Shown: positions 7,305 through 53,570 of the stretch, one piece after another | Numbering within the stretch: position 1 is the first letter of the stretch | Layout: each line of letters opens with the position of its first letter | Source of the DNA: Candidatus Woesearchaeota archaeon | GTDB taxonomy: Archaea; Nanobdellota; Nanobdellia; Woesearchaeales; GW2011-AR4 | Length of the DNA stretch: 64,000 bases | Direction of reading: 5' to 3' | NCBI GenBank assembly: GCA_016185945.1 | Contig: JACPMR010000011.1 | Location: 633-64,632, forward strand | Made by a program: the position numbers and the translations under genes | The notes under the pieces: generated by a model | The model's input: only the letters and a program-made list of their open reading frames with translations | Told to the model about the DNA's origin: nothing | Databases searched by the model: none

Positions 7305-7497
7305 CTGTTATATTTATTTTGCAGTATATAAATTTTTTGGAGGATTTAAGCAGATTGTGTTAAATGGGTTCCATCAAGCGGCATAAACCTTTAACATTTA
7401 GGGATGATATACCAGTATTGGTATACACAATACTGAATACCACCAGACAATAAAACCAGCACAACCTTTTTAAACCACTACTTTTTACGATGTGCGG

Positions 7498-15682: not shown

Positions 15683-15696
15683 AGGTTTTTGCCTCT

Positions 15697-16494: not shown

Positions 16495-16510
16495 AGCATT
16501 TAATTTTTAA

Positions 16511-17440: not shown

Positions 17441-17455
17441 TAGTGCGTCTTTTGT

Positions 17456-18937: not shown

Positions 18938-20222
18938 GTTCGTCTACCTGTTCTTTTGTATGCATTTCAGTAATGCAAAAAAGCATCCTGTTTTTATGCT
19001 CGGGATAAAACTTGCCCAAGTCCAAGCCAGGCAATATGCCATTTTTAATCAGGTTCTCGCTTGCTTTTTTCAAATCCTTAACCTCGACAACAAATTCATT
19101 ATAGAAAGGAGCTGTGAAAACCCTCTTAATCCCCGCATTTTCCATGCTGTTTACAGCATAGTGTGATTTGTGCAAATTCTGGATTGCCAGATTCTTTAAC
19201 TCTTTTCCTAAAGTTGATAAGGTAATTGTGACAGCCAATGCATTCAAAGCCTGGTTAGTGCATATGTTTGAAGTAGCTTTTTCCCTTCTTATGTGCTGCT
19301 CTCTTGCTTGCAGAGTTAAAACAAATCCCCTGCGTCCTTCACTATCAACAGTCTGCCCTGCCAATCTGCCTGGAATCTGCCTGACAAATTCTCTTTTAGT
19401 TGCCATAAAGCCCACAAACGGGCCTCCAAAGCTGATAGGATTGCCAAATGAATGCCCTTCGCCCACAACTATGTCTGCATTGTAGCTGCCGGGGCTTTTT
19501 AATATGCCGAGAGATGTCGGCTCATTGACGCTAACAACAAGCAAAGCACCATTTTCATGGGCAAAATCAGAGATTGCATTTAAATCTTCTATAAGTCCAA
19601 AAAAATTTGGCTGCTGCACAAGTATGGCTGCAAAATCTTTATGCTCGCCAATTTCAGTGGTTCCATTGCTGCAGCCAACCTCAATCAACTCAATTGAATT
19701 TGCATTTGTGTATGTTTTAACAACCTCTCTGTGCTCCGGATGCACTGCCCTCGAGATTAAAATTTTATTTTTATTCTTTATTCTGCATGCCATAATCGCA
19801 GCTTCCGCCAAAGCGCTGCTGTTATCGTACATTGAAGCATTTGCAGCATCCATTCCTGTGAGGTTGCATATAATTGTCTGATACTCAAAAATGGCTTGCA
19901 GCATTCCCTGGCTTATTTCCGGCTGGTATGGCGTGTATGCTGTAAAAAATTCCCCCCTTAAAAGCAGATGATTGACAATTGTCGGTATGAAATGGCAGTA
20001 TGCGCCTGCTCCGAGAAAAGAAATCATGCCGGTATTGTTTTTCGCAGCTATGCTCTTGAGCAATCTCCCGACTTCCATCTCCGACAAAGCAGATGGAATT
20101 TTCAGTTTTTCTTTTAAGATGAGGCTTTGAGGCACATCTTTAAAAAGCTCGGATACGTCATTTGCTCCAATTACATCAAGCATCTCCTTTATCTGCTCTT
20201 CTGTATTTGAGACATAATGCAT
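18912..20222 (-). CDS. gcvPA: Glycine dehydrogenase (decarboxylating) subunit 1.
   Basis: P-protein N-terminal-half homolog. Confidence 0.9.
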
Positions 20223-20237
20223 TTTATTTTACAATAT

Positions 20238-20642
20238 TTAATGTTCTAATCCTTCGAGGTATTTTTTATATTCTTCAGCATTCATTAAATTCTTTACTTC
20301 GCTTTCATCAAAAACTTTGATTTTTGCTATCCACCCGATGCCATAAGGATCCTGATTCACGTGCTCTGGGTTATTGCTTAGGTTATCATTGACTTCAACA
20401 ACATCTCCGGAAACAGGGGCAAAAATGTCAGACACAGACTTTACAGACTCCACAACGCATAAAGGCTTGAATTGCCCTGCTTTTTTGCCTACTTGGGGCA
20501 ATTCCACAAAAACAATATCTGTTAAAGCATGCTGGGCATAATCTGTAATTCCTATTACCCCATGCGCACTTTCTATTTTAACCCACTCATGCTCCTTAGT
20601 GTACTTTAATTCTTCAGGTATTTTCCCAATATATTTCATCAC
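20238..20642 (-). CDS. gcvH: Glycine cleavage H-protein.
   Basis: Lipoyl-lysine motif ESVKSVSD. Confidence 0.9.
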   Translation of the reverse strand: MMKYIGKIPEELKYTKEHEWVKIESAHGVIGITDYAQHALTDIVFVELPQVGKKAGQFKPLCVVESVKSVSDIFAPVSGDVVEVNDNLSNNPEHVNQDPYGIGWIAKIKVFDESEVKNLMNAEEYKKYLEGLEH

Positions 20643-21748
20643 TTACCACCCTTATATTTGTAAAATGGTCTTTCCACTATAACCCCTTTATATTCTTTTC
20701 CTCTGATTAATACCGATATTTCACCACCGACATTATACAAATCAGACTTAATATAAGCCATGCCCAATCCTTTTTTGAATGTAGGCGAAAATGTCCCTGA
20801 ACTTACAAACCCGACATTCTCATTATCGACTAAGATTGGATAATTTTCTCTAGGAATAGACTTATCAATCATCTCAAAGCATACCAATTTTTTTCCTGTG
20901 CCGTTATTTTTTTGAGCTTGAAGTACCTCCTTTCCAATAAAATCTTTGTTGAGCTTAACAACAAAGCCAAGCCCCGCCTCAATTGGCGTTAAATTTTCGT
21001 TTATTTCATGCCCATAGAGGCTGTAGCAAGCTTCTATCCTTAATGTGTCTCTTGCTCCTAAGCCGCATGGCTTTATGCCAAATTCTTTGCCTGCTTCCAG
21101 CAGATTGTTCCACATCGTTACAGAGTTTCTAGGGCTAAAAAATAGTTCAAACCCGTCTTCTCCAGTGTATCCAGTCCTGGAAATAAGGATTTGCTCATCA
21201 ATATCCTTGACGCTAATCTTCTCGCATCTAAATCTTTTAATTTCGTTTAAATCAAAATCAGTCAGCTTTTGCATCGTATCATTTGCAAATGGGCCCTGCA
21301 CATCTATCTTCCCTATATTATCGCTTATATTCATTAAATCCACGTTATCCATCTTGTGATTTGCAAACCAGTTAAAATCCTTTTCAGTTGTTGACGCATT
21401 GACTACAATAAAATATTGTTTGTTATCTAACTTGTAAACAAAAAGATCGTCAACAACAGTTCCGTTTTCATAGCAAAGGCAGTTATAACAAGCCTGCTTT
21501 ATTTCCAGTTTGCCTATGTCATTAGTCACTAATTTTTGCAAAAATTCCTCAGAATTATTTCCTGACACAACAAATTCGCCCATGTGGCATATGTCAAATA
21601 TTCCCGCGTTATTTCTAGTTGCAAGATGCTCTTCTATAACGTTTGTATATTGGACAGGCATGTTCCAGCCGCCAAATGGAACCATAGAGGCACCTAACTT
21701 GATATGCTCGTTAACCAGAGGCGTGTTTTTTATTTCATTAGGACTCAA
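20639..21748 (-). CDS. gcvT: Aminomethyltransferase (T-protein).
   Basis: GcvT family. ATGA overlap with gcvH, with TGA used as the stop. Confidence 0.9.
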   Translation of the reverse strand: MSPNEIKNTPLVNEHIKLGASMVPFGGWNMPVQYTNVIEEHLATRNNAGIFDICHMGEFVVSGNNSEEFLQKLVTNDIGKLEIKQACYNCLCYENGTVVDDLFVYKLDNKQYFIVVNASTTEKDFNWFANHKMDNVDLMNISDNIGKIDVQGPFANDTMQKLTDFDLNEIKRFRCEKISVKDIDEQILISRTGYTGEDGFELFFSPRNSVTMWNNLLEAGKEFGIKPCGLGARDTLRIEACYSLYGHEINENLTPIEAGLGFVVKLNKDFIGKEVLQAQKNNGTGKKLVCFEMIDKSIPRENYPILVDNENVGFVSSGTFSPTFKKGLGMAYIKSDLYNVGGEISVLIRGKEYKGVIVERPFYKYKGGK

Positions 21749-22114: not shown

Positions 22115-22936
22115 ATGGGCTTCAAGTTTGTTATAAAAAACGGAGAATTAATAGAGAAAGAAAAAGCAAATGTTTCGGTTTACAACAAATCATTATTTTT
22201 TGATTTTGCTGTTTATTCCAACTTGAAAATTATCCAAGGCAAAATGTTTTTGCCTGAGATAGAAATAGCAAAATTGCTCGAATCCGCGAAAGAGATTGAA
22301 TTAAAGCACAATTTTAAACAAAAACAAATTATTGAATGGGCTAAAATTCTAATCAAAGAAAATAATATTCAAGATGCCCTGATAAGAGTCTTGCTGATTG
22401 GCCCTGAAAAGGGTGCAGAGCCGTTGCTTTTCCTGTTTCCTCTTGGATTAACCTTCTATCCCGATAAGTTATACAAGCAGGGCGCCAAGGTAATAACATA
22501 CCATGGTGAAAGGTTCATGCCCGCATCCAAGACAAAAAATCTCCTTATGAGCTACATTGCATACCGCGAAGCAGAAAAAAATGGTGCAATTGATGCTTTG
22601 TTGATTGATAGAAAAGGCAACATAAGAGAAGGCACAAGAACAAGCTTTTTCGTGATAAAATATGATACATTGATAGCTCCTCCTAAAGAGAAAGTGCTGC
22701 CTGGAGTAACAAGAAAGGTTATTTTTGATATTGCACCAAAAATAATGAAAGTCAAAGAAGAGGATATACCATTATCAAAAATAAAAAACTATGATGAGCA
22801 CTTCATAAGCGGAACTACAATAAAAATCATGCCAGTTAGTCAAATAGATGATACAGTTTTAAGAAAAGGAGTCGGTGAAAAGGTTAAGATGCTGCAGAAG
22901 ATGTTTAAGGAGTATGTTGATGATTATGTTAATTAA
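22115..22936 (+). CDS. PLP fold-type IV aminotransferase (branched-chain/D-amino-acid aminotransferase or ADC-lyase family).
   Basis: EGTRTSFF and LPGVTR motifs. Confidence 0.7.
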   Translation: MGFKFVIKNGELIEKEKANVSVYNKSLFFDFAVYSNLKIIQGKMFLPEIEIAKLLESAKEIELKHNFKQKQIIEWAKILIKENNIQDALIRVLLIGPEKGAEPLLFLFPLGLTFYPDKLYKQGAKVITYHGERFMPASKTKNLLMSYIAYREAEKNGAIDALLIDRKGNIREGTRTSFFVIKYDTLIAPPKEKVLPGVTRKVIFDIAPKIMKVKEEDIPLSKIKNYDEHFISGTTIKIMPVSQIDDTVLRKGVGEKVKMLQKMFKEYVDDYVN

Positions 22937-39525: not shown

Positions 39526-40095
39526 ATGTTCAACAAAAAGGAATTCTCGAAGATTAGGGAAGAAATTCATAATTTTGACGCCAAAAGGGAGGATGTAATC
39601 CAGCTTTCAAGGCACATCATAACCCTGTCAAAACAGGTAATTTATGCTGCTCAAAGGAATGACTTGAAAACGGCTGATTCTGCAATTAAAAAAATCAAGG
39701 ACAATGTAAAAAAATTAAAAAAAATCAACATAGCAACAGACACGAACATCAATTCAGTTGCATTCCAGGAGTATGTTGAGGCAGTTGCTTTCTATGAATT
39801 TGTCAAAAACAAGAGGATACCGACAAAAGCAAGCTTGGGGGTATCTGCAGAAGACTACTTGAGCGGGCTTTGCGACTTGACAGGGGAGCTTGTAAGGAAA
39901 GCAGTTTATGATGTCATCCATAAGAGATTTGACGAGGCGGTCAAGATAAAAGAGCTGGTTCATGACATCTATGGAGAATTCTTAAAGTTTCATTTAAGGA
40001 ATAGTGAACTAAGAAAAAAATCCGATTCAATAAAATGGAATCTGAAGAAATTGGAAGAAGTGATGTATGATATTGCCATTCACAAGAAAAAATAA
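39526..40095 (+). CDS. Translin-family protein.
   Basis: EDYLSGLCDLTGELVRKAV matches the translin DYLxGLxDLTGELxR signature. Confidence 0.65.
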   Translation: MFNKKEFSKIREEIHNFDAKREDVIQLSRHIITLSKQVIYAAQRNDLKTADSAIKKIKDNVKKLKKINIATDTNINSVAFQEYVEAVAFYEFVKNKRIPTKASLGVSAEDYLSGLCDLTGELVRKAVYDVIHKRFDEAVKIKELVHDIYGEFLKFHLRNSELRKKSDSIKWNLKKLEEVMYDIAIHKKK

Positions 40096-40335
40096 TATAT
40101 TGTTGCGAATGGCAAGATAGCCGCCAAAAACAAAACATGATTATTACTTTTTGGTCGGCTATATTTCTATGAAAGGAAGGAGTTAGTTTTGGTTTTTCGT
40201 TGATTGAAAAAATAATTGTTTATTGAAATGCCTTATTGGCATCGGCAGAAACGAAGTTTCTGACGAACTTAAAAATGTTAGTTTTTAAGTAGGGCAAGAA
40301 GCTCAAGAACATTAAATTCGTTAAATAATTAAATT

Positions 40336-40390
40336 TTCAATCCGCCTGCGGCGCATGTTACTGCTCGGTGGCATTAACCGCCTCGCCTAT
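40336..40390. repeat. Short GC-rich repeat copy.
   Basis: TTCAATCCGCCTGCGGCGCATGTTACTGCTCGGTGGCATTAACCGCCTCGCC shares termini and motifs with 26316.. and 58569.. Confidence 0.45.
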
Positions 40391-40508
40391 ATATTAAAAA
40401 TCGAAGATTTTTAAAATCCCGAAAATCTCGCGATTTTCGCGACATAATCGAAAATAAAATGCTTCTTAACAATAAACTTTAAATAACATTCTTCAAATCC
40501 ATGATCTC

Positions 40509-42743
40509 ATGAAAAGAACCCAGACTTGCGGAGAATTGACAGATAAAGACGTTAACAAAAAAGTAACTTTATGCGGATGGTGCTCGACAAGAAGAGACCA
40601 TGGCGGGGTTATTTTTATCGACTTGAGAGACAGGTATGGAATAACGCAAGTAGTTTTTGATCCTTCTTTTAATCTTGAAGCGCATAAAATTGCTGAAAAA
40701 TTAGGCAGGGAAGATGTGATTCAAGTAAAAGGCATTGTAAAGCACAGAAAAAAGGGCATGGAAAATCCAAAGCTTAAAACAGGCGCTGTTGAAGTTTTTG
40801 TTGAGAAAATAGAAATTTTGAGCGAGTCAGAAGCCCCTCCAATGGAAATTGATGACAGGATTCTTACAAGCGAAGACACGCGCTTGAAGTACAGATATCT
40901 TGACTTGAGAAAGCCGGGAATGCAGCACAACATAATAACAAGGCACAAATTTGTCAAAGCTGTCAGGGATTATTTTGACAGCCTGGATTTTGTTGAAATT
41001 GAAACTCCTATTCTTGCAAAAAGCACTCCTGAAGGCGCTAGAGATTATCTTGTGCCGTCTAGAATTCATGCTGGAAAGTTTTATGCTCTGCCCCAAAGCC
41101 CTCAGATATTCAAGCAGCTTTTGATGGTCTCTGGCTTTGACAGGTACTTTCAGATTGCAAGATGCTTCAGAGATGAGGATTTAAGGGCTGACAGGCAGCC
41201 GGAATTCACTCAGATAGATGTAGAAATGAGCTTCGTTGAGGAAGATGATATAATGGAAATTGTTGAAGGCATGCTCAAGCACGTCTGGAGAATTTTGTTG
41301 AACAAAGACTTAAAAACGCCATTTCCAAAAATAACCTACAATGAGGCAATCAGCAAATATGGCTTGGACAAGCCCGATACAAGGTTTGAGCTTCATCTTG
41401 TTGATGTAACCGATGTTGTCAAAAACTCGAATTTTGAGGTTTTTACAAAGGCAATAAAGCAAAAAGGAATTGTAAAGTGCATAAATGCAAAGGGCTGCGC
41501 AAGCTTCAGCAGGACTGTTATAGAGGAATTGACAAGCTTTGTTGCAATTTATGGTTCAAAAGGGCTTGCATGGATGAAAGTTACAGAAAAAGGGCTTGAA
41601 AGCTCTATTGTGAAATTCTTTGACGAGAAAATACAAAAGGAATTGCTCAAGGCAGCAAATGCTAAGAAAGATGACTTGTTATTTTTTGTTGCTGACTCAA
41701 GCCATAAAGTTGTAAACGATTCACTTGGTTATTTAAGAATTGAGATTGCCAAAAGATTGAATCTTATTGACAATAATCACTTTAGTTTTGTGTGGGTTAC
41801 TGACTTTCCATTGGTTGATTGGAGCGAAGAAGAGCAGAAATATGTTGCAGTTCATCATCCTTTCACAAGCCCAAAAGACGAAGATATAGGGCTGCTTGAT
41901 AAATCTCCGGAAAAGGCAAGGGCAAAGGCATATGATATTGTTTTGAACGGCACTGAAATCGGAGGCGGCTCTATAAGAATCCATAGAAGCAATATCCAGT
42001 CAAAGATGTTTTCTGTCTTGGGTTTAAGCAAGGAAGAGGCAGAGCAGAAATTTGGATTCTTGCTCGAGGCATTCAAGTATGGCACTCCGCCTCATGGAGG
42101 CATTGCCTTGGGAGTTGACAGGATTGTTGCTATGATAACTGGAAATGAATCAATAAGAGAAGTAATTGCCTTTCCAAAGAACAAGGCAGCAGAGTCATTA
42201 ATGGATGAGGCGCCAAGTGCAGTAAGCGAGAAGCAATTAGAGGAATTACATATCAAGTTTGATTTTGTAAAAGAGCAAGTAAATGTTGTGTTCGGCAAGA
42301 TAAGGGATGTCTTGAACAAGGAAAAGATTGAGCATGAAGTGCTTGAGCACAAGCCAGTTTATACGAGTAAAGAAGCAGCTCAAGTAAGAGGCACAGAGCT
42401 GAAGCAGGGCTGCAAGGCACTAATTTGCAAGACAGAAGAGGGATTTATCCAAGCAGTTGTCTCTGGTGCAAAGGAGCTTGACATTGGAAAATTGCAGAAA
42501 CTGACTTTGTACAAGAAAATCGAGCTGGCAAATGCAAAGGAAGTAAGGCAGGCAACTGGATGCAACATTGGCTCTGTGCCGCCGTTTGGAAATTTGTTTA
42601 ATTTAAAAACTTACTTTGATAAGTCAGTTGTTGAGAATGATATAATTGCATTTAATGCAGGCACGCATACAAGAAGCATCAAGATGAAAGCGAAGGATTT
42701 GATTAAGGTTGTTAATCCTGTGGTTGGGGAGTTTGGTAAGTGA
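40509..42743 (+). CDS. aspS: Bacterial-type aspartyl-tRNA synthetase (with GAD insertion) fused to a C-terminal YbaK/ProX-type aminoacyl-tRNA deacylase domain.
   Basis: Class II motifs and the anticodon-binding OB fold (residues about 1-590). The C-terminal 150 aa align to YbaK. Confidence 0.85.
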   Translation: MKRTQTCGELTDKDVNKKVTLCGWCSTRRDHGGVIFIDLRDRYGITQVVFDPSFNLEAHKIAEKLGREDVIQVKGIVKHRKKGMENPKLKTGAVEVFVEKIEILSESEAPPMEIDDRILTSEDTRLKYRYLDLRKPGMQHNIITRHKFVKAVRDYFDSLDFVEIETPILAKSTPEGARDYLVPSRIHAGKFYALPQSPQIFKQLLMVSGFDRYFQIARCFRDEDLRADRQPEFTQIDVEMSFVEEDDIMEIVEGMLKHVWRILLNKDLKTPFPKITYNEAISKYGLDKPDTRFELHLVDVTDVVKNSNFEVFTKAIKQKGIVKCINAKGCASFSRTVIEELTSFVAIYGSKGLAWMKVTEKGLESSIVKFFDEKIQKELLKAANAKKDDLLFFVADSSHKVVNDSLGYLRIEIAKRLNLIDNNHFSFVWVTDFPLVDWSEEEQKYVAVHHPFTSPKDEDIGLLDKSPEKARAKAYDIVLNGTEIGGGSIRIHRSNIQSKMFSVLGLSKEEAEQKFGFLLEAFKYGTPPHGGIALGVDRIVAMITGNESIREVIAFPKNKAAESLMDEAPSAVSEKQLEELHIKFDFVKEQVNVVFGKIRDVLNKEKIEHEVLEHKPVYTSKEAAQVRGTELKQGCKALICKTEEGFIQAVVSGAKELDIGKLQKLTLYKKIELANAKEVRQATGCNIGSVPPFGNLFNLKTYFDKSVVENDIIAFNAGTHTRSIKMKAKDLIKVVNPVVGEFGK

Positions 42744-46844: not shown

Positions 46845-49226
46845 TTATTTTAACCTTAACTTAGCAGTCAAATCAGGCCATATCTGTTCGGGATTTACAC
46901 TAGTAAATGAGCTTCCTTGAGCAAGAACATAATAGTTATTGCCTTCCTTCTTGCATGAAACTCCTGATGCAACATCTTTTCTTGCCTCGCTGAACTTATT
47001 CGTAAAGCCGCATATGTCAGCGTCAAAACCAGAGTACTCAACAACCGCGTTCTTGAAATTCTTTCCTTCTATAGAGCCTTTGATTGTTTTGCCTGCCTGC
47101 TGTGATAAATAAAGTTTATCAAATTTCTTCATTCCCTTTACATAAGACTCGTCAAAAGGCGGGCTTGTTATTAATCTTTTGATTGAACTGATAATGCTTT
47201 GTATCAGGCTGCCGAAGAATGTTGTTGTTTCCTGCTCTGAAGGCACGGTTATTGCGCTTTGGCTGTAAATGAAGCTTTTCAGTCTTTTATTGTACCATAC
47301 TTTGTTTGTTGTGTCGCACGCATGATAGTTGCCGTCATCAATCAATGCTTTATCGCAGCTTGTGATGCCGAGTATGTTAAGGGCGGTTGCTGGCGCTTCT
47401 TCAAGGTTTTTGTTGATAGAGGTTGCTGCTGTTATTCTGCTGCCTGCTTTCAAAACGCAGAAATTATTAGTCTGTATATTTGAAAGTACGTCTGAAATAA
47501 GCTCGTTTGAATCAGTCAGATACTGCAGGTTGTTTAACGAATTTTCTCTTGCATCGCAGAACAATGTGTAATCTCCGCTCTTAAGTTTTAACAATTTCAG
47601 TGCCAGCAGCTTTGTCCTTGTAGTCCACAGCCCATTCTCACAATAATTGTCGTTCACATACTCTCCAGATTCGATGCATTGGTTTGTCTGCCCAAATACA
47701 CTTGAAAGGCATTGAGACTGCTTGGGGCAAAAGCCGGAAATATCCTCATCAGGTGTAAATTTCAAGGCTGAAGTTGTCCAGTTGCCGTCTATGCATCTTA
47801 ATCCATTGACCGGTTGCGCCAACGGCTTGTTTCTCTGATTTTCAGCGCATATTGTGCCATCCCAGCACTCATCTTGAGCGCAGCATTCTGCTGCAAGATT
47901 TGGATTTGCCACAGGGGCAAAGCTCAAGTGGCTTTTGTCGTTGCCATTTGTCAAAATCCATTTTTCTGTGAATGAGCAATAATAATTGTTCTCAGGGTCT
48001 TTAAAGCAATAATCGTGGTTTGTTATTAAAGGAACTCCTGACTTATCTGACAAGCCCAATAAGTTATCATTGTCCTTATTGAAATTTATCTTGTCAATTG
48101 CACAGCCATGGAATGAGCCCTGGTAGTTTATAACCGAGTCGTCTGTGCCTTTGACAACATCAATACTTCTCACAAATTCCTTGTTCCAGCAGCCTCCTAT
48201 CACACCGGCATCATTATAGTATTCGTTTGAATCGTCTGCCTCGCTGCAGCATTTTGTGCCAGTCCACTTGAAGCCTGCTTTCTCGCATGTTGACTTGTCC
48301 TTTGTGTCCAAATCTGTTGTAAATGTTTTGTCTGATGCGCAGTAATAAACTTTATTGCTGTAGTTTACCGATTGTCCTGCTGCCAATCTTTTGCCGTCTG
48401 TGCTTGACTTGCAGGAGCTGCTGCCGCAGCATTCAACAATTGATTCTTTGCCCTTTCCAGTGCACATAAACTCGTTGCCGCTTACTTTTGTCTGCCAGAA
48501 TGCACCATCGCAAGCTTTCCACGCGCTTCCATCTGCTATGTATTCCTTGTCAGCGCAACCAAGATATTTTATGTCGCCTTTCAACTCAGAAGACTGCATC
48601 CAGAATGGAGTTGTTCCTTCTGCATCAAGATGGCAAATTCCCCCTTTTGCCTGCAATGCACAATCAGTCTCGTCGTCTCCGCAACAGCCACCATCACTCC
48701 AGTCTCTTGAACCGGCATTGTTGCCAACTGGGCAGCTAGTGCACGAGACTGCACTCCAGTCTGGTTCGTCTTCTTTGTCATCTCCGCAGCATTTGCCTTG
48801 CTCATTGTCCCACACCCTTCTGCCTGAGTTGTCTCCTATCTTGCAGCTTGTGCAAAATAATTCCCTTTTATCAGGGTCGTCTTGCTCTATGCTGTCATCT
48901 CCGCAGCATTCCGCATCCCAAAAAGTGTCTTTTAAGCAAGCGCATGCCCTTTCATCAGAATCAGGCTCGAAAATACTTGTTCGTTTATAGTCCCCGCCAG
49001 GATAATAGCCGCCAAAGTTGTCTTTGCTCAAAGAACCTCCTGGAACAGGCCTTACGTCAGGGTTTGGCTCTGTGCCTTTTGGATAGCATCCAATCTGGGC
49101 AGAGCTTCCGCCGCCACCGCCGCAAGCAGCTATAAAAATAAGCAATGTCAAGCATGACAAATAGAAAATTGTTTTTCTTCTTATTTTTACCATCCTCTTT
49201 TTTGATATGTTATTTTTGTTATGCAT
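46845..49226 (-). CDS. Large secreted Cys-rich repeat protein, probable lipoprotein or surface protein.
   Basis: Signal peptide with lipobox-like IAACGGGGGSS. Recurrent CCGDD and SCTSC modules. 793 aa. Confidence 0.5.
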   Translation of the reverse strand: MHNKNNISKKRMVKIRRKTIFYLSCLTLLIFIAACGGGGGSSAQIGCYPKGTEPNPDVRPVPGGSLSKDNFGGYYPGGDYKRTSIFEPDSDERACACLKDTFWDAECCGDDSIEQDDPDKRELFCTSCKIGDNSGRRVWDNEQGKCCGDDKEDEPDWSAVSCTSCPVGNNAGSRDWSDGGCCGDDETDCALQAKGGICHLDAEGTTPFWMQSSELKGDIKYLGCADKEYIADGSAWKACDGAFWQTKVSGNEFMCTGKGKESIVECCGSSSCKSSTDGKRLAAGQSVNYSNKVYYCASDKTFTTDLDTKDKSTCEKAGFKWTGTKCCSEADDSNEYYNDAGVIGGCWNKEFVRSIDVVKGTDDSVINYQGSFHGCAIDKINFNKDNDNLLGLSDKSGVPLITNHDYCFKDPENNYYCSFTEKWILTNGNDKSHLSFAPVANPNLAAECCAQDECWDGTICAENQRNKPLAQPVNGLRCIDGNWTTSALKFTPDEDISGFCPKQSQCLSSVFGQTNQCIESGEYVNDNYCENGLWTTRTKLLALKLLKLKSGDYTLFCDARENSLNNLQYLTDSNELISDVLSNIQTNNFCVLKAGSRITAATSINKNLEEAPATALNILGITSCDKALIDDGNYHACDTTNKVWYNKRLKSFIYSQSAITVPSEQETTTFFGSLIQSIISSIKRLITSPPFDESYVKGMKKFDKLYLSQQAGKTIKGSIEGKNFKNAVVEYSGFDADICGFTNKFSEARKDVASGVSCKKEGNNYYVLAQGSSFTSVNPEQIWPDLTAKLRLK

Positions 49227-49681: not shown

Positions 49682-49972
49682 ATGGTTATGGAAGTGGACA
49701 GGAAGCTTTTGGAGCATGTTGCTGAATTGGCACGGTTAAAGCTCAGCGAAGAGGAAATCGGGAAATTCCTTCCTCAACTTAAGGAAGCACTTGAGTTCTT
49801 TTCAAAGTTAAAGGAAGTTGACACAGACAATGTAAAGCCTAGCTTCCAGCCAGTTGAGATAAAGAATGTTATGCGCGAAGACAAAGAAGAGAAATGCCTT
49901 TCTCAGGACGATGCATTGTCTTTGACAGAGCACAAAAAAGACGGCTATTTCAAGGGGCCGAGGGCTGTTTAA
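49682..49972 (+). CDS. gatC: Asp/Glu-tRNA amidotransferase subunit C.
   Basis: GatC-like 96-aa protein immediately upstream of gatA. Confidence 0.75.
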   Translation: MVMEVDRKLLEHVAELARLKLSEEEIGKFLPQLKEALEFFSKLKEVDTDNVKPSFQPVEIKNVMREDKEEKCLSQDDALSLTEHKKDGYFKGPRAV

Positions 49973-49973
49973 A

Positions 49974-50522
49974 ATGCACAAGCAATTAAGGCTTTTTTTA
50001 ACGGCAAATTCCTTTTTTGCGCTGGCGGCAGGAATGCTTGGGCCTATATATGCATTATTTGTCAAGCAGATTGGAGGGGATGTGCTGGCAGCTAGCGGTG
50101 CATGGGCAACTTTTATGATTGTTTCAGGACTTGGCATATTTTTAATGGGCAAAATCCAGGATAAAATAAAAAGAGAAAAGCCAGTTATAATAATTGGGTA
50201 TTTCCTGCAGAGCTTGGGTTTTCTTGGATATTTTTTTGTTTCCAATATTGTTCAGTTATTTATAGTGCAGGTGATATTGGGGGTTAGCTTAATGATTCAG
50301 ATTCCGGTTTTTAATTCATTTTATACAAAGTATCTTGAAAAGGGAAAATATGCTTCCCAGTGGGCTGCTTGGGAAGGGTTGTATTTCACGATTACGGGCA
50401 TCGCGGCGCTTATTGGGGGGTTTGTAGTGAAATTTTTTGATTTCAAGTTTTTATTTTTGATGATGTTTGGCTTGTCTTTAATTGGATTGGCATTGTCTAC
50501 TCAGTTAAAAGAGGAAAAATGA
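49974..50522 (+). CDS. Six-TM membrane protein resembling half of an MFS transporter, translationally coupled between gatC and gatA.
   Basis: Starts 2 nt after the gatC stop and overlaps the gatA start (ATGA). Confidence 0.45.
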   Translation: MHKQLRLFLTANSFFALAAGMLGPIYALFVKQIGGDVLAASGAWATFMIVSGLGIFLMGKIQDKIKREKPVIIIGYFLQSLGFLGYFFVSNIVQLFIVQVILGVSLMIQIPVFNSFYTKYLEKGKYASQWAAWEGLYFTITGIAALIGGFVVKFFDFKFLFLMMFGLSLIGLALSTQLKEEK

Positions 50523-51958
50523 GCATTCATGATTTCATCAAAAAAGTAAAAAACAATGAAATTGATATTGTTGAGCATACACAAAAAGTTATAGAGGAAT
50601 GCAAGGAAATAAACACAGAATATAATTATTTCAACACAATTTCTGAAGAATTAGCATTGCAACAGGCAAATAATATTCAAAAACTAATTAAAAACAAAGA
50701 CAAGCCATTAAAGAACAAAAAATTGCTTGGAGTTGTTATTTCTGTTAAAGACGGCATCTGTGTCAAAGATGTTGAAAGCACTGCTGGCTCAAGAATACTC
50801 CAAGGGTATAAGCCGTTGTTCGATGCTTTTGTAATTCAAAGAGTGAAAGAAGAAGGAGGCATTATTATTGGAAAAACTTCACAAGATGAGTTTGGATTTG
50901 GAAGTTTTTCTGTCAATATCGGGGTTGGCTACAAAGTTCCAAAAAATCCCATTGACAAGGAAAGAAGCTGTGGTGGCTCTTCAGGAGGAGCGGCAGGCAT
51001 ATCAAAAAAGGCATCTTTTCCGCACATTTCATTAGGAGAAAGCACAGGCGGCAGTATTGCGGAGCCAGCTTCTTTCTGCGATGTTTTTGGATTATGCCCA
51101 ACTTATGGCAGGGTTTCAAGGTATGGTTTGATTGATTTCGGCAATTCGCTTGATAAAATAGGCCCAATTGGAAGAACAATTGAAGATGTTGCATTATTAA
51201 TGGATGTTATTGAAGGCTATGGCAAGAATGACAGCACTTCCTTGAATGTTAAAAATGAGGATTATTCAAAATATCTAAAAAAATCAATCAAAGAAATGAA
51301 GGTTGGCATAATAAAAGAAGCATTTGCAGAAGGCGTTGAGCCGGAAGTTGAAAAAAATGTCTATAATGGAATTGAAGAGCTTGAAGAGGAAGGTGCAAAA
51401 GCTGAAGAAATTTCTTTGGAGCTGCCTATAAAATACGGGCTTGCAACATATTACATGATTGGAACTTCTGAGGCAAGCACAAACCTTGCAAAATACTGCG
51501 GCATGCGTTATGGCATTAGCGAAAAACTGGAAGGCAGCTTTAACGAATATTTTACAAGGGTAAGAAGCAAAAATCTTGGTGATGAAGCAAAAAGAAGAAT
51601 TATTCTTGGTACGTTTGCAAGAATGGCTGGCTACAGAGATGCTTACTATATAAAGGCAATGAAAGTCAGGACTTTGATGATTCAGGAATACAAAAAAGCC
51701 TTCAAGAAGTTTGACGCATTAGTTTCTCCAACTGTTCCAATTCTGCCACCAAAGTTTTCTGAAATAGAAAAATTGACTCCATTGCAGAACTACATGATGG
51801 ATGTCATGCTTGTCGGCCCAAATGTTGCTGGCTTGCCCCATTTAAACGTTCCAGTCGGCTATGAAAAAAATCTTCCAGTTGGAATGTTATTGATAGCAGA
51901 CCATCTGCAGGAAGGGAAATTGATACAATTGGGAAGTGCTGTAGAGAAGGGGAAATGA
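50519..51958 (+). CDS. gatA: Glu/Asp-tRNA amidotransferase subunit A (amidase signature family).
   Basis: GGSSGGAAG amidase signature and a Ser-cisSer-Lys context. Confidence 0.9.
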   Translation: MSIHDFIKKVKNNEIDIVEHTQKVIEECKEINTEYNYFNTISEELALQQANNIQKLIKNKDKPLKNKKLLGVVISVKDGICVKDVESTAGSRILQGYKPLFDAFVIQRVKEEGGIIIGKTSQDEFGFGSFSVNIGVGYKVPKNPIDKERSCGGSSGGAAGISKKASFPHISLGESTGGSIAEPASFCDVFGLCPTYGRVSRYGLIDFGNSLDKIGPIGRTIEDVALLMDVIEGYGKNDSTSLNVKNEDYSKYLKKSIKEMKVGIIKEAFAEGVEPEVEKNVYNGIEELEEEGAKAEEISLELPIKYGLATYYMIGTSEASTNLAKYCGMRYGISEKLEGSFNEYFTRVRSKNLGDEAKRRIILGTFARMAGYRDAYYIKAMKVRTLMIQEYKKAFKKFDALVSPTVPILPPKFSEIEKLTPLQNYMMDVMLVGPNVAGLPHLNVPVGYEKNLPVGMLLIADHLQEGKLIQLGSAVEKGK

Positions 51959-52152
51959 AAATTAAAGAACTATTTGAAAGTTGGATTGTTGATTTAGTAT
52001 CAAGTGTATTAGGTGTAGCTATGGTTGTATACTCTTTTGAAATAAAGCAACAAAATCCGTACTGGTGGATAGCTTTCATTTCTGGACTAATTTTTCAAAT
52101 TCCATTAATTTATTTCAAGATTTGGAAATTTATAGAAGAAAATTTTGGTTAA
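51955..52152 (+). CDS. Small 2-TM membrane protein between gatA and gatB.
   Basis: Overlaps the gatA stop (ATGA); hydrophobic. Confidence 0.3.
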   Translation: MKIKELFESWIVDLVSSVLGVAMVVYSFEIKQQNPYWWIAFISGLIFQIPLIYFKIWKFIEENFG

Positions 52153-52154
52153 AA

Positions 52155-53570
52155 ATGAAACACTTCACTAGCAACATTGTGATTGGACTTGAAATCCACA
52201 CAGAGCTAGACACCAATACAAAACTCTTTTGCAGCTGCCCAACCAAAGGAAACGAAGAGCCAAACACTAGAACGTGCCCTACTTGCTTGGGAATGCCAGG
52301 CTCAAAACCAGTTCTTAACAAAAAAGCAGTCGAGTTTGCTCTAAAATTATGTCTTGCTTTAAATTGTGAAATATCTCCAGAATTAATTTTCTCAAGAAAA
52401 TCATATTTCTATCCAGACATGTCAAAAAACTATCAAATTTCTCAATATGATATCCCTCTTGGGAAAAATGGCAGTTTAAGATTAAGGGATGGAAAAGAAA
52501 TTGGTATTATAAGAGTTCATTTGGAAGAAGACCCTGCTTCTCTAATACATCCTGCTGGATTGAAAGAAAGCCAATATGTTTTGGTGGATTACAACAGAAG
52601 CGGAAATCCTCTTGTTGAGATTGTAACAGAACCAGATTTAACATCTCCAGACGAAGCAAGAGATTTTATGAAGCAGTTGATTACAGTGCTTAACTATTTA
52701 GAGATTTTTGATATAAATGAAGGAATCATAAAGGCGGATGCAAATGTTTCAATAAAAGAAAGTGATTATGCAAGAGTTGAAATAAAAAATATCACGGGCT
52801 TTAAAGAAATTGAAAAAGCGTTAGTTTATGAAGTCAACAGGCAAAAAGAAGACACAAAGCTTCATAAAAAAATCGAGCAGGAAACAAGGGCATGGGATTC
52901 AGAGAAAGGAGTTACATTTACTTTGAGAAAAAAAGAAACTGAAGAGGATTATGGCTATATTATAGACACTGATTTGACTATTGTTGAGATAACTGACAAA
53001 TGGGTTAAGGAAATCAAAAAGGAAATGCCGGAATTGGCACAGGACAAAGTCAAGAAGTTTGTTGAAAAGCACAAGATAAAGAAAGAAGATGCAGAAATTC
53101 TTGCAGCAGAAAAAGAATTAGCAGAGATGTTTGAGAAAGTAGCAGAAGAAATTAATCCAGTCCTGGCAGCAAAATGGCTGAGAAGAGAACTTGTTAGGGT
53201 TTTGAATTACAACAAAAAAGAATTGCGTGAAGTTGAGATTGATGAAAAGCACATGATTGATTTATTAAAATTAGTTGAAAACAAAAATATAACTGATAAT
53301 GTTGCATCTAAAATTCTTGAAAAACTGATTGAAAAACCGTTTAATGTCAATGAATATGTGAAGAAAGAAAAATTGGAAGCAGTTTCTGATACTTCTGAAC
53401 TGGAAAAATACTGCAGGGAAGCGATTGAGGAAAACCCACAAGCTGTTGAAGATTATAAGAAAGGAGAAAAAAGGGCACTGAATTTCATTGTGGGAAAAGT
53501 TATGGCTAAAACCAGAGGAAAAGCAACTCCGAAAGAAGTTAATGAGATTATTCTGAGATTGATTAAATAA
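52155..53570 (+). CDS. gatB: Asp/Glu-tRNA amidotransferase subunit B.
   Basis: MKHFTSNIVIGLEIHTEL N-terminus typical of GatB/E and a C-terminal YqeY-like domain. Start moved to the internal ATG at 52155. Confidence 0.85.
   Translation: MKHFTSNIVIGLEIHTELDTNTKLFCSCPTKGNEEPNTRTCPTCLGMPGSKPVLNKKAVEFALKLCLALNCEISPELIFSRKSYFYPDMSKNYQISQYDIPLGKNGSLRLRDGKEIGIIRVHLEEDPASLIHPAGLKESQYVLVDYNRSGNPLVEIVTEPDLTSPDEARDFMKQLITVLNYLEIFDINEGIIKADANVSIKESDYARVEIKNITGFKEIEKALVYEVNRQKEDTKLHKKIEQETRAWDSEKGVTFTLRKKETEEDYGYIIDTDLTIVEITDKWVKEIKKEMPELAQDKVKKFVEKHKIKKEDAEILAAEKELAEMFEKVAEEINPVLAAKWLRRELVRVLNYNKKELREVEIDEKHMIDLLKLVENKNITDNVASKILEKLIEKPFNVNEYVKKEKLEAVSDTSELEKYCREAIEENPQAVEDYKKGEKRALNFIVGKVMAKTRGKATPKEVNEIILRLIK

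What the first reader, a model, noticed from the sequence alone, without database searches (positions are those of the whole stretch)
40509..42743. Bacterial-type AspRS fused to a YbaK/ProX-like trans-editing deacylase domain
Residues about 1-590 are a standard GAD-containing bacterial AspRS. The last about 150 aa align along their length with YbaK (Cys-/Ala-tRNA(Pro) deacylase) family proteins. gatCAB is present in the window and no AsnRS is seen, so this AspRS is probably non-discriminating. An appended deacylase could proofread Asp-tRNA(Asn) or an unrelated mischarged tRNA. I do not recall this domain architecture being characterised.
Basis: partly seen in the sequence, partly recalled or inferred. 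Interest (0 to 1): 0.55.

Follow-up and report, generated by a model that had tools for sequence, protein, structure and literature searches.

The report
AspRS fused to a tRNA-deacylase domain
An archaeon's aspartyl-tRNA synthetase carries an intact proofreading-type domain at its tail, and the same pairing has arisen repeatedly in tiny-celled archaea and bacteria, which suggests a quality-control step at aspartate/asparagine codons that has not been described.

Summary
ORF 40509-42743 (+, 744 aa) is a complete bacterial-type, GAD-containing AspRS (residues 1-583). A ~9-residue linker joins it to a full-length PF04073 aminoacyl-tRNA editing domain (E = 3.5e-29). The host is a Woesearchaeota (DPANN) archaeon.

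The appended domain is not YbaK or ProXp-ala. Its closest characterised relative is E. coli YeaK/ProXp-ST1, a broad Ser/Thr-tRNA deacylase (30% identity). Its closest solved structure is the uncharacterised 3OP6. The catalytic Lys (K636) and the GXXXP loop are invariant in 66 fused homologues, and the domain is conserved at least as well as the synthetase.

The same subfamily is fused to AspRS, or translationally coupled to aspS, in at least four configurations: bacterial-type with GAD, bacterial-type without GAD, archaeal-type, and split gene pairs. These occur in DPANN archaea and CPR bacteria, with unrelated linkers. Of the 80 best species-level loci, 52 are fused and 4 are split. No other synthetase partner was seen.

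gatC, gatA and gatB are in the window, and one relative has a contiguous aspS-deacylase|gatCAB operon.

Most likely the domain is a tethered post-transfer editing module acting on tRNAs handled by AspRS. Its substrate is unresolved. No description of this architecture was found, and AspRS is not among the synthetase families known to edit.

The parts
40509..42743 (+). Complete fused gene: aspartyl-tRNA synthetase plus C-terminal aminoacyl-tRNA deacylase domain (744 aa plus stop)
   Evidence: ORF. Pfam and NCBIfam domain hits. A 100% identical NCBI protein and 67 further clusters with the same architecture.
40563..40820 (+). OB-fold anticodon-binding domain (residues 19-104). Includes R-D-H31-G-G at 40593-40607.
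   Evidence: PF01336, E = 2.3e-19. Motifs shared with solved Asp/Asn ligases 4WJ3, 5GRO and 4RMF. H31 invariant in 32 fused proteins. Coordinates verified.
40869..42185 (+). Class II catalytic core (residues 121-559). QSPQ at 41094-41105, motif 2 at 41169-41225, GGGSIRIH at 41961-41984, motif 3 at 42093-42122.
   Evidence: PF00152, E = 2.8e-131. Motif residues invariant across the fused clade. Coordinates verified.
41442..41726 (+). GAD insertion domain (residues 312-406), the hallmark of bacterial-type AspRS
   Evidence: PF02938, E = 6.3e-27, covering profile positions 1-95 of 95.
42258..42284 (+). Junction linker FDFVKEQVN (residues 584-592), between the canonical AspRS C-terminus (…EKQLEELHIK) and the first helix of the deacylase
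   Evidence: Split relatives stop exactly at the equivalent 'QLKELGLK' position. Linkers are unrelated among fusion types. AF2 gives pLDDT below 50 for residues 559-590.
42285..42740 (+). INS-superfamily (PF04073) aminoacyl-tRNA deacylase domain of the YeaK/ProXp-ST1- and 3OP6-like branch (residues 593-744)
   Evidence: PF04073, E = 3.5e-29. 3OP6 at 64 bits. YeaK at 30% identity, E = 2e-24. Subfamily profile scores: YeaK 113, 3OP6 110, ProXp-x 66, YbaK 60 bits. AF2 pLDDT 80-94.
42408..42422 (+). G-C-K636-A-L: the conserved catalytic lysine strand of the INS superfamily (K636 codon 42414-42416)
   Evidence: K636 is invariant in 66 of 66 fused proteins. It aligns with the lysine of 3OP6, 2CX5, 1WDV, YbaK and YeaK. 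The role of this Lys is described in PMC11286415.
42570..42596 (+). G688-S-V-P-P692-F-G-N-L: the GXXXP loop plus the subfamily-specific F-G-N-L extension
   Evidence: G688, V690, P691, P692, N695 and L696 are invariant in 66 of 66. GXXXP is the superfamily signature.
42651..42677 (+). F-N-A-G-x-H-x-x-S motif (residues 715-723). Subfamily signature, shared in part with YeaK and 3OP6.
49682..49972 (+). gatC, a syntenic partner of the fused aspS in Woesearchaeota
   Evidence: Typical GatC translation. GatC is called in syntenic loci L001 and L002. It lies directly after the fused gene in L043.
50519..51958 (+). gatA (amidase subunit)
   Evidence: PF01425, E = 1.4e-112.
52065..53570 (+). gatB
   Evidence: GatB_N E = 8.1e-99 and GatB_Yqey E = 3.6e-41.

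Best explanation
The gene encodes a working AspRS, bacterial in type and probably able to charge both tRNAAsp and tRNAAsn. A catalytically competent aminoacyl-tRNA deacylase of the INS (ProRS-editing/YbaK) superfamily is permanently tethered to its C-terminus through a short flexible linker.

Proposed mechanism:
1. AspRS binds tRNAAsp or tRNAAsn through its OB-fold and catalytic core.
2. If the 3' end carries a wrong aminoacyl group, that end is captured by the tethered domain, either on the same dimer or immediately after release.
3. The invariant Lys636 and the GXXXP loop position the ester bond for hydrolysis, as in other INS-family enzymes.

By homology with YeaK/ProXp-ST1, the most likely wrong group is a small polar non-cognate amino acid of the Ser/Thr type. 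On this reading the domain serves as an editing domain for AspRS.

Shown here: the architecture, the intact active-site residues, purifying selection, and the recurrent AspRS-specific fusions and operons.

Inferred: hydrolytic activity, that the clients are AspRS-bound tRNAs, and the identity of the aminoacyl group.
For: 1. All domains are complete and all AspRS catalytic motifs are intact.
2. K636, G688xxxP692 and about 15 further deacylase residues are invariant in 66 fused proteins spanning 61-100% identity. The deacylase is as conserved as the synthetase body, or more so.
3. The link is specific to AspRS and recurs. The same subfamily is fused to GAD-type bacterial AspRS (Woesearchaeota/Nanoarchaeota), to a second GAD-type lineage (P0271), to GAD-less bacterial-type AspRS (P0253, P0295, L056, L058, L064, L081) and to archaeal-type AspRS (P0200, L068, L082, L087; NF003483 at 470-508 bits against a cutoff of 353).
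4. Four genomes have split pairs, with aspS ending at its canonical C-terminus and the deacylase ORF 0-1 nt away or overlapping by 4 nt (L062, L069, L077, L078).
5. Of the 80 best GTDB loci, 52 are fused and 4 are split. No other aaRS was found as a fusion partner among the 150 best representatives.
6. Linkers are unrelated among fusion types, which indicates independent fusions. Fused domains fall in several groups of a neighbour-joining tree.
7. The nearest characterised relative is a proven aa-tRNA deacylase, YeaK/ProXp-ST1 (function per PMC11295145).
8. AF2 folds the domain confidently but gives no fixed docking (pTM 0.58, linker pLDDT below 50). That fits a tethered, mobile module.
Against: - No AspRS is known to mis-activate Ser, Thr or any other amino acid at a level that needs editing. 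Hendrickson's group found that bacterial AspRSs do not make Glu-tRNAAsp/Asn (PMC6523644).
- Identity to YeaK is only 30%. Three invariant motifs of this subfamily differ in YeaK: T619-S620, G694-N-L696 and H720-T721. Ser/Thr specificity therefore cannot be transferred with confidence.
- About 23 of the 80 loci carry the same subfamily, with the same active-site residues, stand-alone and more than 4 kb from any aspS (Nitrososphaerota, Bathyarchaeia, Aenigmatarchaeota). The enzyme clearly can work without being linked to AspRS.
- No biochemical data exist.
- The structure model gives no evidence that the CCA end can shuttle in cis.
Confidence: 0.4

Rival explanations
1. Fail-safe for the indirect asparagine pathway. 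The domain hydrolyses Asp-tRNAAsn that is not handed to GatCAB. Asp on tRNAAsn would then be either amidated inside the transamidosome or destroyed, and would never reach the ribosome. In genomes that have AsnRS, it would clear Asp-tRNAAsn made by a relaxed AspRS.
For: - gatC, gatA and gatB are in the window.
- gatC/gatA lie 0-4 kb downstream of the fused gene in about 20 Woesearchaeota loci, and L043 is a contiguous aspS-deacylase|gatC|gatA|gatB operon.
- The AspRS has non-discriminating-type anticodon-domain motifs.
- The archaeal-type partners score above cutoff for the 'aspartate--tRNA(Asn) ligase' model.
- Released Asp-tRNAAsn is toxic, and known systems rely on kinetic retention described as 'editing-like' (PMC3367201).
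- INS-family enzymes typically read acceptor-stem elements. In principle that could distinguish tRNAAsn from tRNAAsp.
Against: - Hydrolysing the obligatory pathway intermediate would be a futile cycle unless it is tightly gated.
- No gatCAB was found within 4 kb of any CPR fused locus.
- The nearest characterised homologue acts on Ser/Thr, not on an acidic side chain.
- The conserved Arg627 that could have bound a carboxylate is also present in YeaK.
- Stand-alone members occur in lineages where the link to ND-AspRS is untested.
Confidence: 0.25
2. A general trans-editing factor that merely travels with AspRS. The domain is a broad-specificity deacylase, for example for Ser/Thr-tRNAs made by ThrRS, AlaRS, LysRS, ValRS or IleRS, as YeaK is. 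Fusion to aspS in reduced genomes provides only co-expression, stability or a generic tRNA-binding platform.
For: - Closest characterised relative is YeaK/ProXp-ST1, which has broad tRNA specificity.
- Stand-alone orthologues with identical active-site residues are widespread in archaea away from aspS.
- The flexible tether has no predicted docking.
- Class II synthetases release product quickly, and fused ProXp-ala is thought to act mostly in trans (PMC11286415).
Against: A generic factor would not be expected to fuse or couple repeatedly and exclusively with aspS. Here the coupling occurs across three AspRS types, two domains of life and unrelated linkers. No other synthetase partner appears among the 150 representatives and 80 loci examined.
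Confidence: 0.2
3. Chiral proofreading. The domain removes D-aspartate mis-attached to tRNAAsp, standing in for a D-aminoacyl-tRNA deacylase.
For: - From memory, not checked here: E. coli AspRS can charge D-Asp, and DTD clears the product.
- The same deacylase subfamily is also fused, through a membrane segment, to D-Ala-D-Ala carboxypeptidases (P0283, P0326). This is a loose association with D-amino-acid biology.
- No DTD-like gene was seen among the ~40 window ORFs scanned.
Against: - No INS-family enzyme is known to be D-specific.
- The carboxypeptidase domain would sit on the other side of the membrane.
- DTD presence or absence could not be assessed genome-wide.
Confidence: 0.05
4. Non-catalytic accessory. 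The domain only binds the acceptor end or the whole tRNA, raising affinity or retaining product. It would work like the YqeY-type appendage of Deinococcus GlnRS.
For: There is precedent for appended tRNA-binding domains in synthetases of or near the indirect pathways (PMC1865053, listed). The plant ProXp-ala CTD enhances tRNA binding.
Against: The catalytic Lys, the GXXXP loop and the rest of the pocket-forming motifs are invariant over 61-100% sequence divergence and in every fusion type. A purely binding role would not require that.
Confidence: 0.07
5. Artefact: a frameshift, a read-through of two adjacent genes, or a chimeric assembly.
For: Some databases hold 'stand-alone' 138-180-aa versions at 79-86% identity. 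One Logan contig splits the gene into 563 + 180 aa (L003).
Against: Those 'stand-alone' calls sit inside intact 743- and 745-aa ORFs (L001, L002). More than 50 independent assemblies from different studies carry the uninterrupted ORF.
Confidence: 0.01

Closest known systems
E. coli YeaK (ProXp-ST1; 'mischarged aminoacyl-tRNA deacylase'), INS superfamily
   Same: Full-length alignment at 30% identity, E = 2e-24. It is the best-scoring characterised reference for the subfamily profile, at 113 bits. Shared motifs: H614, I/V-R627-G-T, Q-G-x-K636-A-L, G-x-(V/I)-P-P-F, D704, F-N-A-G, S723.
   Different: YeaK is a free-standing 167-aa bacterial protein. It differs at three positions or motifs that are invariant here: T619-S620 (K-C in YeaK), G694-N-L696 (S-F-H) and H720-T721 (L-D). 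Its Ser/Thr specificity is therefore not transferable with confidence.
PDB 3OP6 (uncharacterised YbaK-like protein)
   Same: Best solved-structure match by sequence: 64 bits with the single sequence and 110 bits with the profile. It shares T619, P-P-F-G-N-L and F-N-A-G-x-H.
   Different: It lacks R627-G628, G634, D704 and S723. It is stand-alone, and its function is unknown.
ProRS INS editing domain and the ProXp-ala-ProRS fusions of lower eukaryotes
   Same: An INS-superfamily hydrolytic domain covalently joined to a class II synthetase, with the same Lys/GXXXP chemistry.
   Different: - Partner: ProRS (class IIa) there, AspRS (class IIb) here.
- Position: INS is inserted between motifs 2 and 3 and ProXp-ala is N-terminal. 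Here the domain is C-terminal.
- Similarity: sequence similarity to INS and ProXp-ala is weak, about 20 bits.
- Error corrected: Ala mis-activation is known for ProRS. The error here is not known.
YbaK (Cys-tRNAPro deacylase)
   Same: Same Pfam family and fold class, with the Lys and GXXXP present.
   Different: The equivalog model TIGR00011 scores 78 bits against a cutoff of 153. BLASTP against E. coli YbaK gives 47 bits, against 80 for YeaK. According to the review, YbaK is restricted to bacteria.
SepRS fused to a ThrRS-type editing domain (some bacteria)
   Same: A synthetase of an indirect aminoacylation pathway that has acquired a hydrolytic editing domain by gene fusion, with an unknown mischarged substrate. 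Stand-alone copies occur next to pathway genes in archaea (PMC8762117).
   Different: Different synthetase, different editing fold (DTD-like) and an N-terminal position. Far fewer examples are known.
Non-discriminating bacterial-type AspRS of the Asn-transamidosome (P. aeruginosa 4WJ3, H. pylori)
   Same: 615 bits to 4WJ3 over residues 1-584. The GAD domain and the DHGG/ENPKLKTG anticodon-domain motifs are shared. gatCAB is nearby.
   Different: Those enzymes end at about residue 590 and have no hydrolytic domain. They avoid releasing Asp-tRNAAsn by kinetic retention and channelling.

Membership tests
Bacterial-type aspartyl-tRNA synthetase (TIGR00459 / NF001750) | Score above the curated equivalog cutoff over the full model | tested here: met
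   NF001750 at 889 bits (cutoff 443) and TIGR00459 at 825 bits (cutoff 374), residues 1-584. 610-650 bits to solved bacterial AspRSs.
Bacterial-type aspartyl-tRNA synthetase (TIGR00459 / NF001750) | N-terminal OB-fold anticodon-binding domain, class II core with QSPQ and motifs 2 and 3, and the GAD insertion | tested here: met
   Pfam hits. Motif residues present and invariant in the clade.
Bacterial-type aspartyl-tRNA synthetase (TIGR00459 / NF001750) | Aspartylation of tRNAAsp | not testable with these tools
   Needs an enzyme assay.
Non-discriminating AspRS (Asp-tRNAAsn-forming) | Charges tRNAAsn as well as tRNAAsp | not testable with these tools
   Needs an aminoacylation assay. No tRNA genes are in the window to inspect.
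Non-discriminating AspRS (Asp-tRNAAsn-forming) | Genomic association with GatCAB | tested here: met
   gatC, gatA and gatB lie 7-11 kb downstream in the window. The arrangement is syntenic in about 20 related loci and forms a contiguous operon in L043.
Non-discriminating AspRS (Asp-tRNAAsn-forming) | Absence of AsnRS from the genome | tested here: inconclusive
   None in the 64-kb window, but the whole genome is not available. Relative L069 has AsnRS 3 kb from its split aspS-deacylase pair.
Non-discriminating AspRS (Asp-tRNAAsn-forming) | Anticodon-domain residues typical of ND enzymes (His at the position equivalent to P. aeruginosa H31; the significance of this residue is recalled from memory) | tested here: met
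   R-D-H31-G-G aligns with 4WJ3, 5GRO and 4RMF, all deposited as Asp/Asn ligases. 6WOM has R-D-K-G-F instead. H31 is invariant in 32 fused proteins.
INS superfamily of aa-tRNA deacylases (Pfam PF04073) | Full-length match to the family profile | tested here: met
   E = 3.5e-29, 101.8 bits against 25.5, profile positions 1-122 of 123.
INS superfamily of aa-tRNA deacylases (Pfam PF04073) | Strictly conserved catalytic lysine and Gly-XXX-Pro loop (as defined in PMC11286415) | tested here: met
   K636 and G688-S-V-P-P692 are invariant in 66 of 66 fused proteins and align with the reference proteins.
INS superfamily of aa-tRNA deacylases (Pfam PF04073) | Hydrolysis of an aminoacyl-tRNA ester bond | not testable with these tools
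   Needs a deacylation assay.
YbaK sensu stricto (Cys-tRNAPro deacylase, TIGR00011 / PRK10670) | Score above the equivalog cutoff | tested here: not met
   TIGR00011 at 78 bits (cutoff 153) and NF007951 at 36 bits (cutoff 243).
ProXp-ala (Ala-tRNAPro deacylase) | Close sequence relationship to characterised ProXp-ala (5VXB / 1VJF) | tested here: not met
   Only 20 bits, E about 4e-3. This is the weakest of the ten PDB hits.
ProXp-ST1 (YeaK) Ser/Thr-tRNA deacylase | Orthology-level similarity to E. coli YeaK, including its active-site motifs | tested here: inconclusive
   It is the best characterised match (30% identity; 113 bits with the profile). However, three invariant motifs differ, and 3OP6 scores about equally.
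ProXp-ST1 (YeaK) Ser/Thr-tRNA deacylase | Deacylates Ser- and Thr-tRNAs with broad tRNA specificity | not testable with these tools
   Needs an assay.
ProXp-7/-8/-9 (uncharacterised INS clusters of Kuzmishin Nagy et al. 2020) | Placement in the published sequence-similarity network | not tested
   The defining paper is not held in the library. Membership in one of these clusters cannot be excluded.

The most novel reading that the evidence does not exclude
AspRS would be an eighth synthetase family with a dedicated hydrolytic proofreading module. Specifically, the module would be a hydrolytic fail-safe for tRNA-dependent asparagine synthesis. Asp-tRNAAsn made by a relaxed AspRS would be either amidated by GatCAB or destroyed by the tethered deacylase. 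This would be a quality-control branch of the indirect pathway, which is currently thought to rely only on channelling, kinetic retention and elongation-factor rejection. It would have evolved independently several times in DPANN archaea and CPR bacteria.
Probability: 0.25. Interest if true: 0.85.

Novelty: new variant of a known kind. Interest (0 to 1): 0.66.

Why it matters
AspRS, like the other class IIb synthetases, is regarded as accurate enough to need no post-transfer editing. Current reviews list seven editing synthetase families and describe the INS-superfamily deacylases, apart from those tied to ProRS, as single-domain proteins.

Here an intact deacylase has been captured by AspRS. 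The capture is conserved and under selection, it has happened in three different AspRS lineages, and it also occurs as translationally coupled gene pairs. All of this is in the two great radiations of ultra-small, host-dependent prokaryotes. It implies a fidelity problem at Asp or Asn codons that has not been recognised.

The candidates are mis-activation by AspRS, leakage of Asp-tRNAAsn from the indirect pathway, and D-Asp. The protein is a single, soluble-looking polypeptide with an obvious catalytic knock-out (K636A), so the question can be tested directly in vitro. The finding also assigns a genomic context, and therefore a lead to function, to a large uncharacterised archaeal/CPR branch of the YbaK-like superfamily. 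That branch gave 3,740 hits at E <= 1e-3 among 50%-identity cluster representatives.

Tried and rejected
1. **Close 'stand-alone YbaK' proteins as real split genes.** These are P0121-P0130 at 79-86% identity. Rejected: L001 and L002 contain intact 743- and 745-aa ORFs, so these are gene-calling artefacts from internal starts. L003 is a 563 + 180 aa frameshifted Logan contig.
2. **Arg627 as an Asp-carboxylate-binding residue unique to this subfamily.** It is absent from 3OP6, ProXp-x, 1WDV and YbaK. Rejected as a specificity argument, because E. coli YeaK has the same I-R-G-T motif.
3. **gatCAB linkage as a universal feature of the fusion.** It holds for Woesearchaeota but not for the CPR fused loci within 4 kb.
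4. **'No AsnRS' as a rule for the clade.** L069 encodes AsnRS beside its split pair.
5. **Look-up of the window protein's own contig.** It is not on record.
7. **Retrieval of the three papers that define the INS clusters** (Enzymes 2020, PNAS 2015, JBC 2013). None is held, so assignment to ProXp-7/8/9 or ProXp-ST2 could not be made, and the family of 3OP6 remains unnamed.
8. **Literature support for the H31/G83 determinants of non-discrimination.** Not found in the library, so this is cited from memory only.
9. **Rfam and tRNA scans of the window.** Both found nothing.
10. **AF2 for domain docking.** pTM 0.58 with a low-confidence linker, so the model says nothing about cis shuttling.
11. **Glu mis-charging by AspRS as the error being corrected.** The cited study found no Glu-tRNAAsp/Asn.


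Full report
**1.

The window contains one uninterrupted ORF at 40509-42743 (+), 744 aa.
- Pfam finds the full set of bacterial AspRS domains: OB-fold 19-104, class II core 121-559 and GAD 312-406.
- It also finds a complete PF04073 'aminoacyl-tRNA editing domain' at 614-733 (E = 3.5e-29, profile positions 1-122 of 123).
- NCBIfam's bacterial aspS equivalogs are passed at about twice their cutoffs over residues 1-584.
- QSPQ, motif 2, GGGSIRIH and motif 3 are all present, so the synthetase looks functional.

**2. Organism and reality of the fusion**
- The identical protein is in NCBI as 'aspartate--tRNA ligase [Candidatus Woesearchaeota archaeon]'.
- 67 further 90%-identity clusters at 61-88% identity have the same four-domain architecture at ~744 aa. 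They come from NCBI, ENA, JGI and Logan assemblies, and those that carry a name are Woesearchaeota or Nanoarchaeota.
- The next-best hits are ~590-aa AspRSs without the extra domain.
- A scan of GTDB species-representative genomes found 42 species with the intact GAD-type fused ORF.
- 'Stand-alone' records at 79-86% identity turned out to be internal gene calls inside intact 743- and 745-aa ORFs.
- The gene is therefore an AspRS of bacterial type in a DPANN archaeon, and the fusion is a fixed trait of a sizeable clade.

**3. Selection on the appended domain**
- Across 66 fused proteins, the deacylase segment is as conserved as the synthetase body or more so.
- K636 (in G-x-K-A-L) and G688-x-V-P-P692 are invariant, together with T619, A624, R627, G634, N695, L696, D704, F715 and S723.
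- The literature defines the INS superfamily by exactly this lysine and the GXXXP loop (PMC11286415).
- This is not a decaying remnant.

**4. Which deacylase it is**
- Against solved structures, the domain matches best the uncharacterised 3OP6 (64 bits). Then come TTHA1699/2CX5 (the ProXp-x representative, 52), APE2540 (40), YbaK (35) and ProXp-ala (20).
- It misses the YbaK equivalog cutoff by a wide margin, at 78 against 153 bits.
- E. coli YeaK has no structure, so I took its sequence from the K-12 genome.
- A profile of the subfamily scores YeaK/ProXp-ST1 113 bits, 3OP6 110, ProXp-x 66, YbaK 60 and ProRS-INS 20.
- BLASTP against YeaK gives 30% identity over the full length, E = 2e-24. Against YbaK it gives 47 bits.
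- YeaK shares the I-R-G-T...Q-G-x-K-A-L, G-x-I-P-P-F, F-N-A-G and S723 motifs. It differs at T619-S620, G-N-L(694-696) and H720-T721, all invariant here. 3OP6 shows the opposite pattern.
- The domain therefore belongs to a distinct branch next to ProXp-ST1 and the 3OP6 group.
- YeaK is a Ser/Thr-tRNA deacylase with broad tRNA specificity (PMC11295145).
- I could not obtain the papers that define clusters ProXp-7/8/9, so membership there is untested.

**5. The association with AspRS recurs and is specific**

An exhaustive phmmer search of 1.84 billion cluster representatives gave 3,740 relatives at E <= 1e-3. Most are ~155-aa single-domain proteins. The longer ones among the best 150 resolve as follows:
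- a second GAD-type bacterial AspRS lineage (P0271, 41% identity in the domain)
- bacterial-type AspRS lacking GAD (P0253, P0295)
- archaeal-type AspRS (P0200, NF003483 at 508 bits against a cutoff of 353; P0207)
- many contig-truncated AspRS C-termini
- two D-Ala-D-Ala carboxypeptidase fusions
- tandem triplications

No other synthetase appears as a partner.

In the 80 best GTDB loci:
- 52 are fused. Of these, 42 are GAD-type in Woesearchaeota/Nanoarchaeota. Seven are bacterial-type and mostly GAD-less, in Roizmanbacteria, Torokbacteria and other Patescibacteria-like MAGs. Three are archaeal-type in Roizmanbacteria-like MAGs.
- 4 are genuine split pairs. In these, aspS ends at its canonical C-terminus and the deacylase ORF begins 0-1 nt later or overlaps by 4 nt. 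L062 and L077 have archaeal-type aspS, L069 is bacterial with GAD, and L078 is bacterial without GAD.
- 1 has aspS nearby on the other strand.
- 23 have no aspS within 4 kb (Nitrososphaerota, Bathyarchaeia, Geocrenenecus, Aenigmatarchaeota, Iainarchaeota and others).

The linkers of the three fusion types are short and unrelated in sequence. In a neighbour-joining tree, the fused domains fall into several groups among stand-alone ones (no support values, so this is only indicative). All groups share the same invariant residues. Together this is classic fusion-plus-operon evidence for a functional partnership with AspRS, reached more than once.

**6. Link to the indirect asparagine pathway**
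- gatC (49682-49972), gatA (50519-51958) and gatB (52065-53570) are in the window.
- The order Translin, aspS-deacylase, Ham1, gatC, gatA, gatB is syntenic in relatives.
- gatC/gatA lie within 0-4 kb in about 20 Woesearchaeota loci, and L043 is a contiguous operon.
- The anticodon-binding domain has R-D-H31-G-G-V-I-F and G-x-E-N-P-K-L-K-T-G, like the solved enzymes deposited as Asp/Asn ligases (4WJ3, 5GRO, 4RMF). 6WOM does not have them. H31 is invariant in the clade. That this histidine contributes to tRNAAsn acceptance is my recollection of P. aeruginosa mutagenesis, and I could not verify it in the library.
- No AsnRS or other class IIb paralogue is in the window.
- Caveats: the whole genome is unavailable, L069 has a bona fide AsnRS (499 bits against 414) next to its split pair, and no gatCAB lies within 4 kb of the CPR fusions.
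- 'Non-discriminating' is therefore likely for this protein, but the deacylase partnership is with AspRS in general.

**7. Structure**

AF2 with 32 fused sequences gives mean pLDDT 82. Both the synthetase domains and the deacylase (591-744, pLDDT 80-94) are confident. Residues 559-590 fall below 50 and pTM is 0.58. The model gives no fixed docking of the deacylase on the synthetase. It fits a tethered, mobile module but does not say whether the CCA end can shuttle in cis.

**8. Mechanism**

My preferred reading (0.4) is that the domain is a post-transfer editing module for AspRS clients. AspRS holds tRNAAsp or tRNAAsn, and the tethered domain captures a mis-acylated 3' end and hydrolyses it with K636 and the GXXXP loop. 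By homology, the rejected group would be a small polar non-cognate amino acid.

The rivals, in order:
1. **Hydrolytic fail-safe for Asp-tRNAAsn (0.25).** The gatCAB operon and the known toxicity and 'editing-like' handling of that intermediate make it attractive (PMC3367201). It is potentially futile, and the CPR contexts do not support it.
2. **Generic trans-editing factor that is merely co-expressed (0.2).** Stand-alone orthologues and YeaK's breadth favour it. The exclusive and repeated choice of aspS counts against it.
3. **D-Asp-tRNA clearance (0.05).**
4. **Non-catalytic tRNA binding (0.07).**
5. **Artefact (0.01, refuted).**

The weak point of every catalytic model is that no AspRS error requiring editing is known.

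**9. Comparison and novelty**
- What it works like: a synthetase with an appended INS-type editing domain, as in ProRS-INS or ProXp-ala-ProRS. It also resembles the SepRS-ThrRS-editing-domain fusions, where an indirect-pathway synthetase acquired a hydrolytic domain with an unknown substrate.
- What it is a member of: bacterial-type AspRS (met), the INS superfamily (met), YbaK proper (not met), ProXp-ala (not met), ProXp-ST1 (inconclusive).
- Ten full-text searches found no AspRS-INS fusion.
- I rate it a new variant of a known kind: known parts in a combination that has not been described and implies an unrecognised function.
- The proteins are already in public databases, annotated simply as aspartate--tRNA ligase.

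**10. Limits**
- No biochemistry, no whole-genome gene content, and no tRNA sequences from this organism.
- The tree is neighbour-joining on 149 columns.
- Several MAG labels ('uncultured Methanosarcinales', 'uncultured Gammaproteobacteria') are submitter placeholders, and I did not verify them.

Noticed in passing
window 40509-42743 compared with P0030, P0046, P0050, P0051, P0059 (and GTDB loci L008, L015, L017-L029): Mosaic aspS. These homologues are 85-97% identical to the window protein over residues 1-60 and ~560-744, which includes the deacylase. They are only 33-55% identical over ~240-520 (GAD plus the second half of the catalytic core). That is lower than in globally more distant homologues (47-68%). 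It suggests intragenic recombination or replacement of the core while both ends were kept.
   Followed up: partly
P0283 (505 aa) and P0326 (486 aa), from the representative search: The same YeaK-like deacylase subfamily is fused at the N-terminus, through a predicted membrane-spanning segment, to a Peptidase_S11 D-Ala-D-Ala carboxypeptidase (sequences). A cytoplasmic aa-tRNA deacylase joined to an extracytoplasmic cell-wall enzyme is unexplained.
   Followed up: no
P0185/P0333 (448 aa), P0189 (491 aa), P0204 (303 aa): Proteins made of two or three tandem copies of this deacylase domain and nothing else.
   Followed up: no
window 39526-40095 (+); L001 2200-2769; L003 3620-4189; L002 3433-4002 (-): A Translin-family gene lies immediately upstream of the fused aspS, on the same strand in the window, L001 and L003 and on the opposite strand in L002. 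A paper on SepRS reports a TRAX (translin-associated) gene beside that other indirect-pathway synthetase (PMC8762117). The parallel is curious and unexplained.
   Followed up: no
window 40096-40508: A 413-nt non-coding gap upstream of aspS, long for a compact genome, containing several short inverted repeats visible by eye. There is no Rfam family and no tRNA here or anywhere else in the 64 kb.
   Followed up: partly
window 7492-7941 and 8143-9588 (+): The MetRS ORF at 8143-9588 matches the catalytic-domain profile only from position 207 onward. The missing N-terminal half may be the separate ORF at 7492-7941. Possible explanations are a split gene, a frameshift or an insertion. The ORF also carries a C-terminal tRNA_bind (EMAP/Trbp111-like) domain.
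   Followed up: no
window 49974-50522 (+): A 182-aa ORF resembling half of an MFS transporter is wedged between gatC and gatA, overlapping the gatA start by 4 nt. Relative L001 has a peptidyl-prolyl isomerase gene at that position instead.
   Followed up: no
window 46845-49226 (-): A 793-aa cysteine-rich protein with an N-terminal signal/lipobox-like sequence (…LIFIAACGGGGG…) and no Pfam match. It is inserted between the 191-aa coiled-coil ORF and gatC, relative to the synteny seen in L001.
   Followed up: no
window 14360-21748 (-) and 22115-22936 (+): A complete glycine-cleavage and lipoylation cluster: GcvT, a probable GcvH, GcvP1 and GcvP2, lipoyl synthase, LplA-type ligase and dihydrolipoamide dehydrogenase. 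A class IV (branched-chain/D-amino-acid) aminotransferase lies next to it. This is notable metabolic capacity for a DPANN genome.
   Followed up: no
L069 6912-8207 (+): A Woesearchaeote (ARS73) with a split bacterial-type aspS + deacylase pair also encodes a canonical AsnRS 3 kb downstream (NF003037 at 499 bits against a cutoff of 414). So not all members of this group lack AsnRS.
   Followed up: yes
L078 2634-3986; P0253; P0295; L056, L058, L064, L081: Bacterial-type AspRSs that have cleanly lost the GAD insertion (~450-aa bodies; the profile matches in two stretches). They occur in CPR bacteria and in one Woesearchaeote.
   Followed up: partly
stand-alone archaeal loci (L047-L086 subset): In 13 of 21 stand-alone archaeal members, the first proline of the P-P-F motif is histidine (G-S-V-H-P-F-G). 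All fused forms keep P-P.
   Followed up: no
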